DNA of 64,000 bases from the human T2T-CHM13v2.0 reference genome, Homo sapiens, in the NCBI RefSeq assembly GCF_009914755.1, contig NC_060930.1; one strand, given 5' to 3'. This document shows, piece by piece, positions 3,155 through 10,401 of this stretch. Within the stretch, counting starts at the first letter, position 1. Every line of letters begins with the position of its first letter. The notes beneath the pieces are model-generated. The model worked only from the letters and a program-made list of their open reading frames with translations, was not told the origin of the DNA and did not search any database. A program made the translations under genes and the position numbers.

Positions 3155-3705
3155 TGTTGTGGGCCAGCCTCAACACCATCCGTAGGGTATCCGAAGTCCG
3201 GTGGTAACAAAGGAATGAGAAGAGACAGGTTAAGAGTTCTTAAAGGTGGGAGTCAGGGGGCCAGTTTTAAAATGGAGGCTGCAAAACGCCCCGAGCTCTG
3301 GTTTCTACTTGATTTATTGAGTACAATCACTTAGATCTAAGAAGCAGATGTTTAGGGCAAAACAGTGACAGGGAGGCAGTACGTCATAGGCGTTATCTAT
3401 AGTAATAGTGGTTTAAATGAATTTTCTTTGTGTTCAAACAGTGTATCTTTATCGGAGAGTAGTTGGTGGGAGTGGGCTTAACTAGGAGCCTGTACGTCTG
3501 TCCACATTTTAATGTTTTAAAGGAGTATCTTTTTTCTTGAACACAGTGTTTACAGATAAGAGAGCAGATCTCGCTCTGAGCATGGGAACATGATGGCAAT
3601 TAGGAGGCTTTCCTCCTCGGAGGCCTCTTGTGGCTTTCCACAACTTATTGTCCCATATTTTTATGGCCAGTTTATACAGGCACCCCACAAGCCCTTTTCC
3701 CAACA
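3155..3705 (-). repeat. 3' LTR (LTR14-type)
   Basis: 551 bp, TG...CA, direct repeat of 9855-10401; AATAAA on the minus strand near 3313-3318. Confidence 0.93.
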
Positions 3706-3707
3706 TG

Positions 3708-3726
3708 TCCCCCTTTTTTCTTTTTT
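3708..3726 (-). promoter_or_regulatory. Polypurine tract (plus-strand primer)
   Basis: AAAAAAGAAAAAAGGGGGA immediately upstream of the 3' LTR on the minus strand. Confidence 0.85.
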
Positions 3727-6007
3727 AAAACTGTCATTGTTATTATGGTTTGTTTGTGGTGTCTGGTCTCTCTCCAGAGGTGTCTTTCGCATCTGTAGAC
3801 TAAAAGTAAACAGCATAAATAGATACACATTAAAGTAAAATTTGTAATAGTTGATCCTCCAGTGGTCTTAATTTATTTAAGAGGGTTTTCGTTTGAAAGT
3901 CCATTAGTAGTTTTGGTGAGAATGTCAGTCTCAGGCAGGAGAGTTGAATGACCCTGAGTCCCTTTAAAAACCTGTTTTATTAATTTGACTAAATTTAATA
4001 TTAATTTTTTATCCCTTTTTTTAGATGATATTTAACTTTTTTAAAATGATGTTTAGTAGTATTATATGAATAGGGAGTTATGTAGAAATCAGAAGTATTT
4101 TAATCACATTGTATTTGTAATTGATGCTTTAAGCTTATTATATGATCTTTCATTTAAATAACAGTCTATATAAGATTATTTATTTGATTTGTTAATTGTT
4201 GGTCTGTTTAGGTCTGAGTTCCACAATTTTTGAGGAATTTTTTTGTCAATTATTGACATATTTTGTAGTTTGAATAGAGGAGTGTAAAGTAATTCCAGCA
4301 GCCACAGCAGTAGCTGTGACTGCAATAAGGCCCATAATGACTGTTATAAGGCTAAAAATAAATCTTTTTGTTTTGGTAAACACTTTTTTTTAACATTTTT
4401 GTGACCATATGAATGGAAGGAGAGGCTTTTTAAGGTCTATTGAGGAAAACTGGTATCCAAACTTTTTTTAAATCTTTACCAGTAACACAGATGTTTTTTC
4501 ACCAAATGTGAAATCAATACAGGTGAAAAGGTGACAGTTTTGACAAGTAATAGTTTGATAATTAGGTCGAATATTAATATTTTCAAACATTAACATAAAA
4601 GGAGGTTTGACAGAACTTTGGGCACCGTTTGGTGGGAAGAAAACTGATACACAAATTGAAGTCTCTCATCATTTTTTTAAAGATTATATATATTTTTAAA
4701 CCCGAATATGAGTTTGGGCCATCATTAACTTCCATAATTTGGGAATTATGTTTAGGGCCTATTATTGGTTTAATTATTTTTGGATGTGGGCCAGCCATAC
4801 TAAAATTGGCCCAAATTATGGGAAACTGGGCATGTTGTTTAGTGTAAGTAGTGTCATCTTTTTGATAGTATAGTTTTTGTTTCAGTCCTGTCATGTATTT
4901 ATTATTTTGATTGGTACAATTAACTGTAAAGGTCCCCTTAGGAGACCAATTAATGACGATTTTATAGGAATTATTTTGTAGTACCAGTGTGATTGGAGAT
5001 GTAATTTTTTTTTTTTTTTTTTTTTTGAGACGGAGTCTCGCTCTGTGGCCCAGGTGGGAGTGCAGTGGCGCAATCTCGGCTCACTGCAAGCTCCGCCTCC
5101 CGGGTTCACGCCATTCTCCTGCCTCAGCCTCCCGAGTAGCTGGGACTACAGGCGCCCACCATCACGCCCGGCTAATTTTTTTTGTATTTTTAGTAGAGAC
5201 GGGGTTTCACCGTGTTAGCCAGGATGGTCTCGATCTCCTGACCTCGTGATCCGCCCGCCTCGGCCTCCCAAAGTGCTGGGATTACAAGCATGAGCCACCG
5301 CGCCCGGCCGTAATTTTTTAAAATTAATATTTTTAAATTTTTTCACCATTGTTGAGGCTGTTAATCCCTCTTTTTGGGGGGTTTAAATTGTTTTAATTGA
5401 ACCAAACTTTGTGAATGATCTGGGTTCTATTTAGAAAATAAATGATAGAGTACTGGTTTTTTATTATGACCTGGAATTTTAACAGTCAATGTTGTCAGTA
5501 GTCTTTTAGGCAACTGATAGTTGGCCCTATGTAAAGAGGGGGAACTGATAACTCATGGACACATTTATTAACATTTACTTCTTCTCTGGGTGAGAGGGTT
5601 TATAAGTATCTGTAGGCTCAGGCATCTAAACACTATTATTAACATAAACCTCAACCAGGGGTTTTAACCATGTAACAGGCCTAATTAAAGGCAGAAATGG
5701 GACATATATCTAATAGGTATAATTTTGGTTTGTTGTAGTTACAGGGAGACTTACCGTCATAGTAATTACCGTATTATAGTCACCATCAGGTTACTTGAAG
5801 TTAGTGGGTTTTGTTGTATCTTTAGGTGTTTTTTTTGTAAGTTGGGTCCATCATTTGATTTGTTTTCAAGCTGGTGGGCTCATTTGATGGGTTTTGTTGG
5901 TCTTTACCTGGTTGGCTGAAATGTGTATTTGAGCCATCAGGCGTGTTGGGGGCGGGGGTGGAAATCTTGGCTTAAAAATTTTTTTTTTTTTTTGGAATTT
6001 TGTTTAT
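3710..6007 (-). pseudogene. env: HML env remnant (signal peptide/Rec region, SU, TM), many stops, AluY inserted
   Basis: Translates to NYTY*IYVPFLPLIRPVTW and furin site KTKR (4363-4374) followed by fusion peptide [23 protein letters not shown]. The expected start codon reads ATA at 6005-6007. Confidence 0.88.
5011..5309 (-). mobile_element. AluY inserted in env
   Basis: Full dimer, CpG-rich, AluY diagnostics (CTGCAAGCTCCGCC, TTCACGCCATTC); TSD GTAATTTTTT at 5001-5010 and 5310-5319. Confidence 0.95.
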
Positions 6008-7070
6008 GGTAGAGTTTAAGATGTTTTGTAGGTACCCAAACTGGAAGTTGTTTTTTTTCTGGGGAAATACAAACAAACCCTCTTTCCCGTGTAATAACTT
6101 TTCCTCTTTTTTAGGTCTTTGTTTTTGAGTTTTTTTTACCACACAGGTTTTTCTTTATGAACATTTACCTTTTGTCCTGTTAAATGTTGTTTAGTTGTTG
6201 TAGTAACCTGATTTTGGGAGATGTTTAAAAAAATTTAAGGTAACAAGAGCCAATTGTAACTGTATATGAGGGGTGGAATATTTTTAATTTTTTTAATTTT
6301 TTGTTTATGTAATTGTATTTTTAAGATTTGATTGGCTTGTTTCACAATTGTTTGTCCTTGAGAATTATAGGGAATGCTTGTGTTGTGTTTAATGTTTTAT
6401 TGTTTTAAAAATGTTTGGAAAGATCTGCTACAGTAGTCTGGTCCATTGTCTGTTTTTAATTTTTGTGGAATTTCCATGATAGTAAAACAGGAAAGTAAGT
6501 GTCTTTTTATATGTGTTGTAGTCTTGCTGGTTTGGCAAGTAGTCCATATAAAATAAGAATATGTATTTATGGTCGCATGGACATAAGAAAGTTTGCCAAA
6601 TGTAGGAACGTGGGTGACGTCTGTTTGTCAGATTATGTTAGGTGTCAACCCTCAAGGGTTAACACCAGTTTTTTGATGCGGTAGTTGTAGTACCTGGCAC
6701 TGAGGACAATGTTGTACAATGTCCTTGGCCTGATTTTACATAATTTGATATTTGTTTTTAAGTCCTGTTGTGTTAAGGTGTAAGGTGTGTTATTGAGTGG
6801 AAACTTTGGGCATTAGTAAGTATGGGGGAAACCAACAAGTCAGCTTGTTTATTAGTCTTAGTCAAGGGTCCTGGAAGATTGGTATGTGCTCAGATATGAG
6901 TTATATAGAAAGGAAAACCCTGAGTACGCACAGCTGTTTGTAAAGAGTTGAACAATTGATAAAGCTGTTTACCAATAATATATTTAATTAAGGCAGTTTT
7001 AATATGTTGAGTAGCTTGTACAACATAAGTTGAATTTGAAACAATATTAACTGGCTGATTAAAATTTTTT

Positions 7071-9082: not shown

Positions 9083-9704
9083 ATAAGGTGCTGGGTCGGG
9101 CCTGAATTGTTCCTTCACTGTAATGAATGGCAGGGTGAGCCTGAATGCCCCCTTTTCATAATGAACTGTGGGTTGGGCAATAATAGGTGCAGCAAGCCGA
9201 GTCATGGCAAGCCAAGTCTTGGGCTCCCTCTCCTAGAAGGTGGCCATTTCGGACATATCTCTGAAGGAGCCATGGGCTGAACAATTTTTTGAGTAGGTTT
9301 AGGGAGACTGGGGGGATTGGCAGAAATCACCTCCGGAGTCTCCTTTTTGTTAGTACTTAGTAGAGGTGGTTCAGGGTCCTGATCATTAGACTCCTTTCTC
9401 TCCTCCTGTGACTCAACCTCATCATTTGTCTGAAAAGGCACCAGTGCTGCATGCAGCAATGACCAAACTGACCAAACAGGCAAAGGAATTTCCTTTCCTT
9501 TTCTATTTGTTTTTTAAGGTCCTCTTCAACTCTTTCCCAATTTTTTAATTTCACAGTTCTCTGTTTTTGGAACCAAGCACAAAATTGTTCCACAGCATAA
9601 AACAAATCCATAAGATTTTCCGTATCAACTTTTACCCCACCACACTTCAAGAGCTGCCATGGCAAGCTCAAATATGTGGTGTACTTACTTTCAGTTTGTC
9701 CCAT
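9083..9704 (-). pseudogene. gag: Truncated gag (matrix plus proline-rich region; CA, NC and pro absent)
   Basis: MGQTESKY...LMDLFYAVEQFCAWF...NWERV is a betaretroviral matrix starting at ATG 9704. It is frameshifted and joins RT (WVKQW) at about 9082. Confidence 0.88.
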
Positions 9705-9833
9705 TTGTGTCCCTAGCTTTCTCCGAGTGCCCTGTTTACCTGCAGAGCTTAAAACTTTTTTGTCCTCAGGAGTCCTTTGTCCATCGGTCCTCCATTTCAC
9801 ACACTTGAGCGTTTCTTCACTGGATTCTTTTGG

Positions 9834-9851
9834 GTCCCATGTTGGGTGACA
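9834..9851 (-). promoter_or_regulatory. Degenerate primer binding site, tRNA-Lys
   Basis: TGTCACCCAACATGGGAC versus TGGCGCCCAACGTGGGGC (14/18), 3 nt downstream of the 5' LTR. Confidence 0.8.
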
Positions 9852-9854
9852 AAA

Positions 9855-10401
9855 TGTTGGGGGCACCACCCATAGGGTACCCGAACTCTAGTGGTGACAA
9901 AGGAATGAGAAGAGACGGGTCAAGAGTTCTTTAAAATGGGAGCCAGGGGGCCACTTGTAAAATGGAGGCTGCAAAAGGCGCCGAGCTCTGGTTTCCACAG
10001 TATTTATTGAGTACAATCACTTAGATCTAAGAAGCAGATGTTCAGGGCGAAACAGTGAAAGGGAGGCAGTACGTCATAGGCGTAATCTACGGTAATAGTG
10101 GTTTAAATGAATTTTCTTTGTGTTCAAACAATGTATCTTTAACTTATCAGAGAGTAGTTAGTGGGAGCGGGCTTAACTAGGAGCCTGTACATCTGTCCAC
10201 ATTTTAATGTTTTAAAGGAGTGTCTTTTTTTCTTGAACACTGTGTTTACAGATAAGAGAGCGGATCTCACTCTGAGCATGGGAACATGATGGCAATTAGG
10301 AGGCTTTCCTCCTCAGAGGCCTCTTGTGGCTTTCCACAACTTATTGTCCCATATTTTTAGGGCAAGTTTATACAGGCACCCCACAGTCCTTTTTCCCAAC
10401 A
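9855..10401 (-). repeat. 5' LTR (LTR14-type), potential promoter
   Basis: 547 bp; about 43 substitutions and 3 indels versus the 3' LTR by manual alignment (~8%). Confidence 0.93.

What the first reader, a model, noticed from the sequence alone, without database searches (positions are those of the whole stretch)
3155..10401. Fossil of APOBEC3-type restriction: HML-10 provirus is massively G-to-A hypermutated, with frequent GA and GC contexts
Seen: the proviral sense strand is extremely A-rich, and conserved residues are changed in the way G-to-A predicts. RNase H catalytic D>N occurs twice (VFTNGSS 7476-7478; VSNSTY 7034-7036). Integrase catalytic E>K (GQTIVKQAN, 6340-6342). RT ILCAA reads ILCTT. 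W>TGA at 8714-8716. env ATG>ATA at 6005-6007. Furin R>K at 4372-4374. A 15-A run (5979-5993) lies at the pol/env overlap. Many inferred changes are GA>AA and GC>AC (Ala>Thr, GGC>GAC, TGGA>TGAA, TGGC>TGAC); some GG>AG (TAG) also occur. Known: APOBEC3G prefers GG>AG, other APOBEC3s prefer GA>AA. Inference: an ancestral primate non-A3G-like deaminase with relaxed context edited this genome in a single replication round before integration.
Basis: partly seen in the sequence, partly recalled or inferred. Interest (0 to 1): 0.8.

Follow-up and report, generated by a model that had tools for sequence, protein, structure and literature searches.

The report
APOBEC-edited HML10 provirus in PKIB intron
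This old endogenous retrovirus copy lost about a third of its internal G bases to A before it entered the germ line, the mark of a host DNA-editing defence enzyme; such fossils are a known kind, but this copy's editing pattern is unusually clear.

Summary
Window 3155-10401 (minus strand) is the published HML10 type II provirus 6q22.31 in a PKIB intron. It has a 6-bp target duplication and three later Alu insertions.

I compared copies directly and built no consensus. Where the three least-edited type II copies agree on a non-CpG G, this copy reads A at 229 of 842 sites. The matching C-to-T figure is 29 of 971. Strictly private changes are G>A 112/901 against C>T 20/1053.

- **Context:** editing is high at GAA, GCA, GAG, GAT, GGA and GCT, and low at GT and when C is at +2.
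- **Timing:** the excess arose before integration. Both LTRs share it, the Alus lack it, and it follows the PBS-to-PPT gradient, with none in the first 169 bases of U3.
- **Selection:** the changes show no purifying selection.
- **Enzyme:** the pattern is not APOBEC3G-like. It combines the published A3F/A3H contexts with the GA+GC context reported for APOBEC3DE.

Not shown: that editing took a single round. Copies C4, Yq11 and 6p22.1 are also edited, more lightly. The family's baseline A-richness (about 31% A) is shared by all copies. This is a new member of a known kind.

The parts
3149..3154 (.). Target-site duplication, left copy (ATGTCC)
   Evidence: Broecker 2016 lists the reverse complement for this element.
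10402..10407 (.). Target-site duplication, right copy (ATGTCC)
3155..3705 (-). 3' LTR (LTR14 type)
   Evidence: G>A against the trio by LTR thirds: 0/33, 10/22, 6/28.
9845..10401 (-). 5' LTR
   Evidence: G>A against the trio by LTR thirds: 0/32, 9/22, 1/24.
3706..9844 (-). Internal proviral region (gag remnant, pol, env), broken by many stops and frameshifts
   Evidence: Pfam hits on read-through translations with X at stops: Gag_p10, RVT_1, RVT_thumb, RNase_H, Integrase_Zn, rve, HERV-K_env_2, GP41.
3706..9202 (-). Heavily edited zone (sense 1200-6696): 193 of 562 trio-G sites read A
9203..9844 (-). Lightly edited leader and gag start (sense 558-1199): 9 of 118 sites
10093..10232 (-). Dense G>A cluster in the 5' LTR (LTR positions 170-309)
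   Evidence: 9/22.
3397..3536 (-). The same G>A cluster in the 3' LTR
   Evidence: 10/22.
3708..3726 (-). 3' polypurine tract directly upstream of the 3' LTR
5979..5993 (-). 15-A run at the pol/env junction; a G-containing purine tract in the 3 aligned type II copies
8492..8956 (-). RT domain (RVT_1)
   Evidence: E=6.5e-28.
6361..6642 (-). Integrase core (rve)
   Evidence: E=1.1e-18.
4001..4258 (-). Env TM region (GP41 family; score just under the Pfam cutoff)
   Evidence: 29.1 bits against a cutoff of 29.6.
7743..8037 (-). Alu insertion 1 (post-integration; excluded from all counts)
   Evidence: Grandi 2017 lists three AluY.
7064..7357 (-). Alu insertion 2
5004..5309 (-). Alu insertion 3

Best explanation
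This HML10 genome was edited by a host single-strand-DNA cytidine deaminase of the APOBEC3 type. The editing happened during reverse transcription, before integration into the germ line of a catarrhine ancestor roughly 20-40 million years ago (published age of the family). C-to-U changes on the minus-strand DNA became G-to-A on the sense strand.

Shown:
- The excess is strand-specific, and it is larger in this copy than in any other.
- It arose before integration.
- It follows the time the minus strand spends single-stranded: none just 3' of the polypurine tract, low next to the primer-binding site, and a plateau of 35-43% of G sites from mid-pol to the tract.
- It was not filtered by selection.
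- It has a fixed context. On the minus strand the preference is 5'-T(T/G)C, then 5'-(C/A)TC, 5'-TCC and 5'-AGC.

Inferred:
- The enzyme was not A3G-like. It was A3F/A3H/A3D(E)-like, or a mixture of these.
- Most of the load came in the last one or few replication rounds.
For: 1. Strand asymmetry outside CpG. Private G>A is 112/901 against C>T 20/1053 (ratio 6.5, p=1.6e-21). The nine other copies have ratios of 0.61-2.25. Against the type II trio, A is found at 229/842 G sites. The controls are 29/971, 27/1705 and 26/1524.

2. A consensus-free pairwise test. With 1q22 as reference, the window's G>A is GA 158/342, GC 90/204, GG 14/170, GT 20/209. The reverse direction gives 12/196, 12/126, 14/170, 18/207.

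3. Polarity. In the RT region, 18 outgroup loci read G at 17 of 19 window-private A sites. At A sites shared with type I copies in env 3', three further copies mostly read G: chr10 36/43, 1p22.2 17/22, 19p13.2 9/10.

4. Timing. Non-CpG changes present in both LTRs, measured against 24 other LTRs, are G>A 10, C>T 1, T>A 1, T>G 1. The three Alus inside the provirus show private non-CpG G>A 2 against C>T 7 on the same strand.

5. Gradient. U3 positions 1-169 give 0/32 and 0/33. Gag gives 9/118. Sense 1200-1799 gives 17/78 and 1800-2364 gives 25/65. Env 3' gives 50/149.

6. No purifying selection. Private G>A in known frames are 12 synonymous, 49 non-synonymous and 4 stop. The synonymous share is 0.18 against 0.24 expected (p=0.31). 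Eight of 16 assessed in-frame stops lie where the other copies read TGG.

7. Context. GAA 41/48, GCA 32/43, GAG 20/36, GAT 23/48, GGA 23/50, GCT 16/37. GAC 4/33, GCC 6/41, and GTN 4-16%. GA and GC are raised together in every edited zone.

8. Literature, passages read. GAD and GGA are the human A3F/A3H contexts (PMC4117599). GA+GC is reported for A3DE (PMC3549941, PMC3937129).
Against: - The first 169 bases of U3 are clean, but LTR positions 170-309 are edited at plateau level (9/22 and 10/22), and the rest of the LTR is low (1/24 and 6/28). The simple kinetic model does not predict that hump.
- Of the 168 window A sites where type I copies are aligned, 95 are shared with at least one of them. 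After stratifying by motif and region a modest excess of sharing remains: window-C4 63 observed against 52.5 expected, p=0.002. Some changes may therefore be inherited rather than made in this copy's last round.
- In the RT region, 6 of 20 A sites shared with type I copies have A in the outgroup. A minority of 'G>A' calls against the trio may be the reverse change.
- Two to five of the LTR G>A changes also occur in some solo LTRs.
- In single-cycle HIV assays with human enzymes, GCC, GCG and GTC were not noticeably edited, and A3D favoured GGD there (PMC4117599). Sato 2014 gives GA for A3D (PMC4199767). The assignment of the GC component to A3D(E) rests on two secondary sources. The primary paper was not held.
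- Ancestral states came from only 9 other copies, through per-column tallies on blastn alignments anchored on the window. Insertions relative to the window are ignored.
Confidence: 0.86

Rival explanations
1. Family-wide compositional bias. The A residues are those of every HML10 copy and say nothing about this provirus.
For: The least-edited copies are already A 31% and G 20%. Vargiu 2016 and Grandi 2017 describe an A bias for the whole group. The furin-site change is shared with 4 other copies.
Against: There are 112 strictly private non-CpG G>A changes against 20 C>T. The window has 5 points more A and 5 points less G than the trio, with C and T unchanged. The pairwise asymmetry holds against all 9 other copies.
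Confidence: 0.02
2. Post-integration strand-asymmetric mutation, for example transcription-coupled effects, since the provirus lies antisense in the PKIB intron.
For: The provirus is intronic and antisense to PKIB (annotation).
Against: The three Alus inserted in the provirus show G>A 2 against C>T 7 outside CpG on the same strand. Ten of 13 non-CpG changes common to both LTRs are G>A, while changes in only one LTR are balanced (G>A 5, C>T 5). Editing is zero in the first 169 bases of U3 and 8% in gag, against 35-43% elsewhere. There is a strong trinucleotide context.
Confidence: 0.02
3. The deaminase chemistry is the same, but the load built up over many replication rounds in a trans-complemented lineage (sub-lethal editing). 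It was not made in one round, and part of it was inherited from an edited ancestor shared with type I copies.
For: All HML10 proviruses lack pro, and all but one lack the gag NC part (Grandi 2017). Coding capacity in cis may therefore not have been needed. Of 168 A sites with type I copies aligned, 95 are shared with at least one of them. Sharing with the window exceeds the motif-based expectation: 63 against 52.5 for C4, and 60 against 52.1 for Yq11. Some LTR G>A changes are also in solo LTRs.
Against: Most of the sharing is predicted by region and trinucleotide alone. C4 and Yq11 share no more than expected (47 against 44.9), which fits independent editing of each copy. The sets of copies that share an A are not nested. 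Once A/G differences are ignored, the window is equidistant from type I and type II copies in every region (4-10% against the six best-aligned copies). Non-CpG G>A found in one LTR only are 5 in the 3' LTR and 0 in the 5' LTR (p=0.003 against other one-LTR changes, 12 and 33). Editing in the final round predicts that direction, but the contexts of those sites are mixed.
Confidence: 0.35
4. Reverse-transcriptase misincorporation under a dCTP/dTTP pool imbalance, the older explanation for G>A hypermutation in GpA (recalled from memory, not from a call). No deaminase would be involved.
For: It would also give sense-strand G>A before integration, with some GA preference.
Against: GC is edited as strongly as GA, and the +2 base has a strong effect: A 97/164 against C 19/132. 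The pattern reproduces published deaminase contexts (GAD, GGA, GM). The gradient follows the time the minus strand is single-stranded, not the order of synthesis.
Confidence: 0.04
5. Reverse polarity. The three type II reference copies gained G by A-to-G (ADAR-type) editing, and the window keeps the ancestral A.
For: In the RT region, 6 of 20 A sites shared by the window and type I copies have A in the outgroup.
Against: Seventeen of 19 window-private A sites and 14 of 15 type-I-only A sites have G in the outgroup. chr10, 1p22.2 and 19p13.2 also read G at most shared sites. At private sites, no aligned copy reads A and G is the majority state.
Confidence: 0.01

Closest known systems
APOBEC3-hypermutated HERV-K(HML2) proviruses (Lee, Malim and Bieniasz 2008, seen only as a reference; Esnault 2008 PMC2531183, search listing only)
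   Same: A single endogenous betaretrovirus copy carries a large, strand-specific, context-biased G>A load relative to its sister copies. It is read as pre-integration editing.
   Different: Those copies are reported with the GG (A3G) context. Here GG is not favoured. The contexts are GA, GC and GGA with A/T/G at +2, and the family is HML10.
Edited primate gammaretrovirus fossils CERV1/2 and RhERV (Perez-Caballero 2008, PMC2564838, passages read)
   Same: The same tests apply: G>A against C>T, CpG exclusion, +1 context, and variation between proviruses.
   Different: They report GG and GA biases only. No GC component is described in the passages read.
Human A3F/A3H editing spectrum in single-cycle HIV-1 (Kim 2014, PMC4117599; Sato 2014, PMC4199767; passages read)
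   Same: GAD and GGA are preferred. GAC is poor, as are GCC and GTC. GAA is the top site, as for A3F.
   Different: GCA (32/43) and GCT (16/37) are edited here about as strongly as the GA sites. Those passages do not list these contexts for A3F or A3H.
APOBEC3DE 'GM' signature: human per review PMC3549941 citing Dang 2006; rhesus per Matsen 2014 PMC3937129 (passages read)
   Same: G followed by A or C is edited. This is the same pair of contexts that dominates here.
   Different: The enzyme cannot be identified from sequence. Other papers give GA (Sato 2014) or GGD (Kim 2014) for human A3D. The +2 preference of A3DE is not given in the passages read.
Twin/PBS-to-PPT editing gradients in HIV-1 (Suspene 2006, as summarised in review PMC4488724, passages read)
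   Same: Editing rises away from the primer-binding site, peaks 5' of the polypurine tract and drops just 3' of it.
   Different: One gradient is enough here. The apparent second gradient was a counting artefact. The hump at LTR positions 170-309 has no counterpart in the passages read.
Genome-wide scans for edited ERV copies (Ito 2020 PMC6955324; Knisbacher and Levanon 2016 PMC4866542; passages read)
   Same: The same signal (strand bias of G>A per integrant; motif inference) was scanned across all human ERVs. This locus may already be flagged there.
   Different: No row for HERVKC4 or LTR14 was found in the 8 supplementary files of Ito 2020 that are held. Neither paper's passages mention HML10.

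Membership tests
HERV-K(HML10) provirus (LTR14-HERVKC4) | Sequence similarity to HERV-K(C4) and the other HML10 loci over LTRs and internal region | tested here: met
   82-88% identity to 8 other loci by blastn. Pairwise identity over shared columns is 78-87.5%.
HERV-K(HML10) provirus (LTR14-HERVKC4) | Matches the published locus 6q22.31: PKIB intron, antisense, three AluY, 7.25 kb, type II with RNase H/IN core | tested here: met
   Grandi 2017 table and text. Broecker 2016 table with the matching target duplication. Pfam RNase_H, rve and Integrase_Zn hits.
APOBEC3-type hypermutated provirus | Sense-strand G>A in excess of C>T outside CpG, relative to sister copies | tested here: met
   112/901 against 20/1053. 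229/842 against 29/971.
APOBEC3-type hypermutated provirus | Non-random nucleotide context of the edited G | tested here: met
   GA and GC each against GG+GT: p about 1e-6. The trinucleotide range is 4% to 85%. The other copies are flat.
APOBEC3-type hypermutated provirus | Changes made before integration | tested here: met
   Ten of 13 non-CpG changes common to both LTRs are G>A. The inserted Alus show no bias.
APOBEC3-type hypermutated provirus | Gradient that follows the time the minus strand is single-stranded | tested here: met
   0/32 and 0/33 just 3' of the PPT, 9/118 next to the PBS, and a plateau of 35-43% up to the PPT. The hump at LTR positions 170-309 is not explained.
APOBEC3-type hypermutated provirus | Orthologues in other catarrhines carry the same A residues | not testable with these tools
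   No primate genome other than the window's own is held.
APOBEC3G-type footprint | GG (especially TGGG) is the preferred context | tested here: not met
   Private: GG 16/216 against GA 46/251 and GC 34/174. Against the trio: GGG 4/25 and GGT 3/26.
A3F/A3H-type footprint | GAD and GGA are preferred; GAC, GCC and GTC are poor | tested here: met
   GAA 41/48, GAG 20/36, GAT 23/48, GGA 23/50. GAC 4/33, GCC 6/41, GTC 3/19. The extra GCA/GCT editing is not part of this signature.
APOBEC3DE 'GM' footprint | Both GA and GC are edited | tested here: met
   Against the trio: GA 105/257 and GC 72/188, compared with GT 13/184. That the enzyme was A3D(E) cannot be tested with these tools.
Single-round ('all or nothing') hypermutant | All edits lie on the terminal branch and were made in the reverse transcription that produced this provirus | tested here: inconclusive
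   For: no selection on the changes; G>A found in one LTR only are 5 in the 3' LTR and 0 in the 5' LTR. Against: 95 of 168 sites are shared with type I copies, with a small excess over the motif-based expectation.

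The most novel reading that the evidence does not exclude
The HML10 family records repeated, independent editing of several proviruses by one deaminase type: 6q22.31 heavily, C4, Yq11 and 6p22.1 moderately, and chr10 weakly. The spectrum includes GCA and GCT. The searched literature ties GC editing only to APOBEC3DE, and the ERV-fossil papers read here report only GG and GA. 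If so, this is a roughly 35-million-year-old footprint of A3D(E)-type restriction of a betaretrovirus in the catarrhine ancestor. It would also be a natural substrate spectrum against which ancestral and modern A3D, A3F, A3C and A3H enzymes could be scored.
Probability: 0.3. Interest if true: 0.62.

Novelty: new member of a known kind. Interest (0 to 1): 0.45.

Why it matters
Edited proviruses are direct fossil evidence of which restriction factors met which retroviruses. For HML10 the literature I could search only notes a group-wide A bias and suggests APOBEC in passing.

This work separates the family baseline from copy-specific editing. It dates the editing to before integration and gives a quantitative trinucleotide spectrum. 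The GC[A/T] component points away from A3G and towards A3D(E)-like activity, for which little fossil evidence is described in the papers I read.

It also has a practical consequence. Age estimates for this locus that use divergence from a family reference are inflated by the edited sites. Claims about its coding capacity should take the editing into account.

Tried and rejected
1. **Twin gradient and internal plus-strand primer.** Counting only strictly private changes gave an apparent cold zone in env 3' (hot-context sites 3/63). It suggested a purine run at window 5365-5375 as an internal primer. I rejected this. Against the type II trio, env 3' is edited at 50/149. Forty-three of those 50 sites are also A in type I copies, so they were hidden by the 'private' rule. 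The purine run is not a copy of the 3' tract.

2. **Mosaic origin or gene conversion.** Distances that ignore A/G differences are similar in all regions and to both types. There is no support.

3. **Plus-strand editing of the strong-stop DNA.** Non-CpG C>T is found only in the 5' LTR (5 against 0), but the contexts do not mirror the G>A motif and p=0.15. Not supported.

4. **The type I 'A/T-rich stretch' as a hyper-edited RNase H/IN region.** Its composition fits: G 11% and A 40%, against 19% and 33% in 1q22. Alignments with collapsed alphabets and with tolerant scoring did no better than shuffled controls, and transversions are many. Inconclusive.

5. **Pfam on raw frames** failed because of stop codons. 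I repeated it with stops read as X.

6. **Literature limits.** The Ito 2020 supplements held as text have no HERVKC4 or LTR14 rows. Dang 2006 is not held.

7. **Rows and columns dropped.**
   - The C4B duplicate (L039) was left out of all counts.
   - Alu columns and their neighbours were excluded.
   - Columns with fewer than 3 other copies aligned, or with a modal share under 0.67, were skipped.
   - Any G with a C before it, or any C with a G after it, in any copy was excluded.
   - Only 12 of the roughly 30 solo LTRs listed were fetched.

Full report
**What is there**

Window 3155-10401 is a provirus on the minus strand.
- Its LTRs lie at 3155-3705 and 9845-10401. They are 91.1% identical over 538 bases.
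- It is flanked by the 6-bp duplication ATGTCC.
- Three Alu inserts interrupt it.
- Read-through translations with X at stops hit Gag_p10, RVT_1, RVT_thumb, RNase_H, Integrase_Zn, rve, HERV-K_env_2 and GP41.

It is the published HML10 type II provirus 6q22.31, antisense in a PKIB intron (Grandi 2017, PMC5667498, passages; Broecker 2016, PMC5142424, passages). Those papers put the family at about 20-40 million years old, and type II copies at about 35. They note only a group-wide A bias, which they loosely ascribe to APOBEC.

**How I tested it**

I built no consensus. Nine other HML10 loci were fetched from the window's own genome:
- type I: C4, 6p22.1, Yq11.221, 19p13.2;
- type II: 19q13.41, 1q22, 1p36.13, 1p22.2;
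- a pericentromeric chr10 copy.

The C4B duplicate was dropped. Each copy was mapped onto the window by chained blastn. All results are per-column tallies across copies. Alu columns and every possible CpG site were removed.

**The excess is real and specific to this copy**

- Against each of the 9 other copies, sites with window A and other G number 154-394. The reverse number 32-124. T/C differences are symmetric.
- Changes found in no other copy are G>A 112/901 and C>T 20/1053 (ratio 6.5, p=1.6e-21). The nine other copies have ratios of 0.61-2.25, pooled 175/5356 against 179/6642.
- The three least-edited copies are 1q22, 1p36.13 and 19q13.41. Where they agree on G, the window reads A at 229/842 sites. 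The three control classes give 29/971, 27/1705 and 26/1524.
- Alu-free composition is A 36.4% and G 14.8%, against 31.3-31.6% and 19.7-20.4% in those three copies. C and T are unchanged.

**Polarity**

- In the RT region, 18 more distant HML elements read G at 17 of 19 window-private A sites.
- At A sites shared with type I copies in env 3', chr10, 1p22.2 and 19p13.2 read G at 36/43, 17/22 and 9/10.

**Timing**

- Against 24 other LTRs, the non-CpG changes present in both LTRs of this provirus are G>A 10, C>T 1, T>A 1 and T>G 1. Changes in only one LTR are balanced, G>A 5 and C>T 5.
- The three Alus, which arrived after integration, show private non-CpG G>A 2 against C>T 7 on the same strand.

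The excess therefore predates integration, and PKIB transcription did not cause it.

**Gradient**

Against the three reference copies:

| Region (sense coordinates) | G sites reading A |
|---|---|
| U3, first 169 bases | 0/32 and 0/33 |
| Gag (558-1199) | 9/118 |
| 1200-1799 | 17/78 |
| 1800-2364 | 25/65 |
| Onward to the polypurine tract | plateau of 35-43% |
| Env 3' | 50/149 |

This is the profile expected if editing tracks how long the minus strand stays single-stranded (review PMC4488724, passages). One feature does not fit: LTR positions 170-309 are edited at 9/22 and 10/22.

**Selection**

In frames fixed by the Pfam hits, private G>A changes are 12 synonymous, 49 non-synonymous and 4 stop. 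The synonymous share is 0.18 against 0.24 expected without selection (p=0.31). Eight of 16 assessed in-frame stops lie where the other copies read TGG.

**Context (internal region, 193/562 sites edited)**

| Well edited | | Poorly edited | |
|---|---|---|---|
| GAA | 41/48 | GAC | 4/33 |
| GCA | 32/43 | GCC | 6/41 |
| GAG | 20/36 | GGC, GGG, GGT | 12-16% |
| GAT | 23/48 | GTN | 4-16% |
| GGA | 23/50 | | |
| GCT | 16/37 | | |

GA and GC rise together in every edited zone. The other copies' private G>A changes show no context. The pattern is not the A3G signature.
- GAD plus GGA matches human A3F/A3H in single-cycle assays (PMC4117599, passages).
- GAA matches A3F (PMC4199767).
- GA plus GC is the 'GM' context reported for APOBEC3DE (PMC3549941; PMC3937129).
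- The primary A3DE paper was not held.

**A correction to my own first reading**

Private-only counts showed almost no editing in env 3'. That suggested a second gradient. It was an artefact. Type I copies are edited too:

| Copy | G>A against the trio |
|---|---|
| C4 | 112/661 |
| Yq11 | 113/657 |
| 6p22.1 | 84/660 |
| chr10 | 51/532 |
| 19p13.2 | 28/340 (no excess) |

Their editing rises from about 8% in gag to 30-40% in env 3', with the same trinucleotide pattern.

Of the window's 229 A sites, 73 are shared with no type I copy, 95 with at least one, and 61 lie where type I copies do not align. Region and trinucleotide alone predict most of the sharing:
- window-C4: 63 observed against 52.5 expected;
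- C4-Yq11: 47 against 44.9.

The sharing sets are also not nested. Independent editing of several copies at the same favoured sites is therefore the simplest reading. A small inherited share is not excluded.

Six of 7 codon-level changes are G>A relative to the aligned copies. In the RT motif, one of the two changes is also present in 1q22. The furin-site change is shared with 4 other copies. The 15-A run is a purine tract that still holds Gs in the three aligned type II copies.

**What stays open**

- One round or several.
- Which enzyme did the editing.
- The hump at LTR positions 170-309.
- Whether the genome-wide scans of Ito 2020 or Anwar 2013 already list this locus. The held Ito supplements have no HERVKC4 or LTR14 rows. 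Anwar 2013 was seen only as a cited title.
- No paper found in searches analyses this copy.

**Verdict**

This is a clear new example of a known phenomenon, with a GC-containing spectrum that is worth a bench comparison.

Noticed in passing
L035 (G000:C10:39174600-39184500): A pericentromeric chr10 HML10-like copy, 77-81% identical to the window. It lacks the RNase H/IN part, like type I copies. It is not among the nine loci that Grandi 2017 lists from hg19 in the passages I read.
   Followed up: partly
L031 (C4), L036 (Yq11.221), L032 (6p22.1): Type I copies also carry a G>A excess against the three type II reference copies: 112/661, 113/657 and 84/660, against C>T of 3-5%. It rises from about 8% in gag to 30-40% just 5' of the polypurine tract, in the same trinucleotide contexts.
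   Followed up: partly
L037 (1p36.13): Eight of 12 assessed in-frame stops lie where the other copies read TGG, and private G>A is highest in the GG context (9/158). This may be a light A3G-type footprint.
   Followed up: no
L040 (1p22.2): Its private changes are rich in synonymous sites (C>T 17 synonymous against 7 non-synonymous; T>C 16 against 7). It is 20-23% diverged in IN. It looks like a separate viral lineage that evolved under selection, rather than decay.
   Followed up: no
L031:4332-5788 (type I 'A/T-rich stretch' of HERV-K(C4)): Its composition is G 11% and A 40%, against G 19% and A 33% in the matching 1q22 region, with C and T alike. A hyper-edited origin is tempting, but the alignment tests did no better than shuffled controls.
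   Followed up: partly
window 10093-10232 and 3397-3536: A dense cluster of G>A changes, none shared with type I copies, at LTR positions 170-309 in both LTRs (9/22 and 10/22). It is flanked by unedited U3 (0/32, 0/33) and a lightly edited remainder. The simple kinetic model does not explain it.
   Followed up: partly
window 9845-10401 versus 3155-3705: The 5' LTR has about twice as many changes found in one LTR only as the 3' LTR (33 against 17). It is 2-5 points less similar to every other LTR14.
   Followed up: no
L044, L045, L047, L048 (solo LTR14 elements): Two of the window's LTR G>A changes (LTR positions 189 and 198) recur in 2 and 4 solo LTRs that are not its closest relatives. These are either editing hot spots or a sub-family marker.
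   Followed up: no
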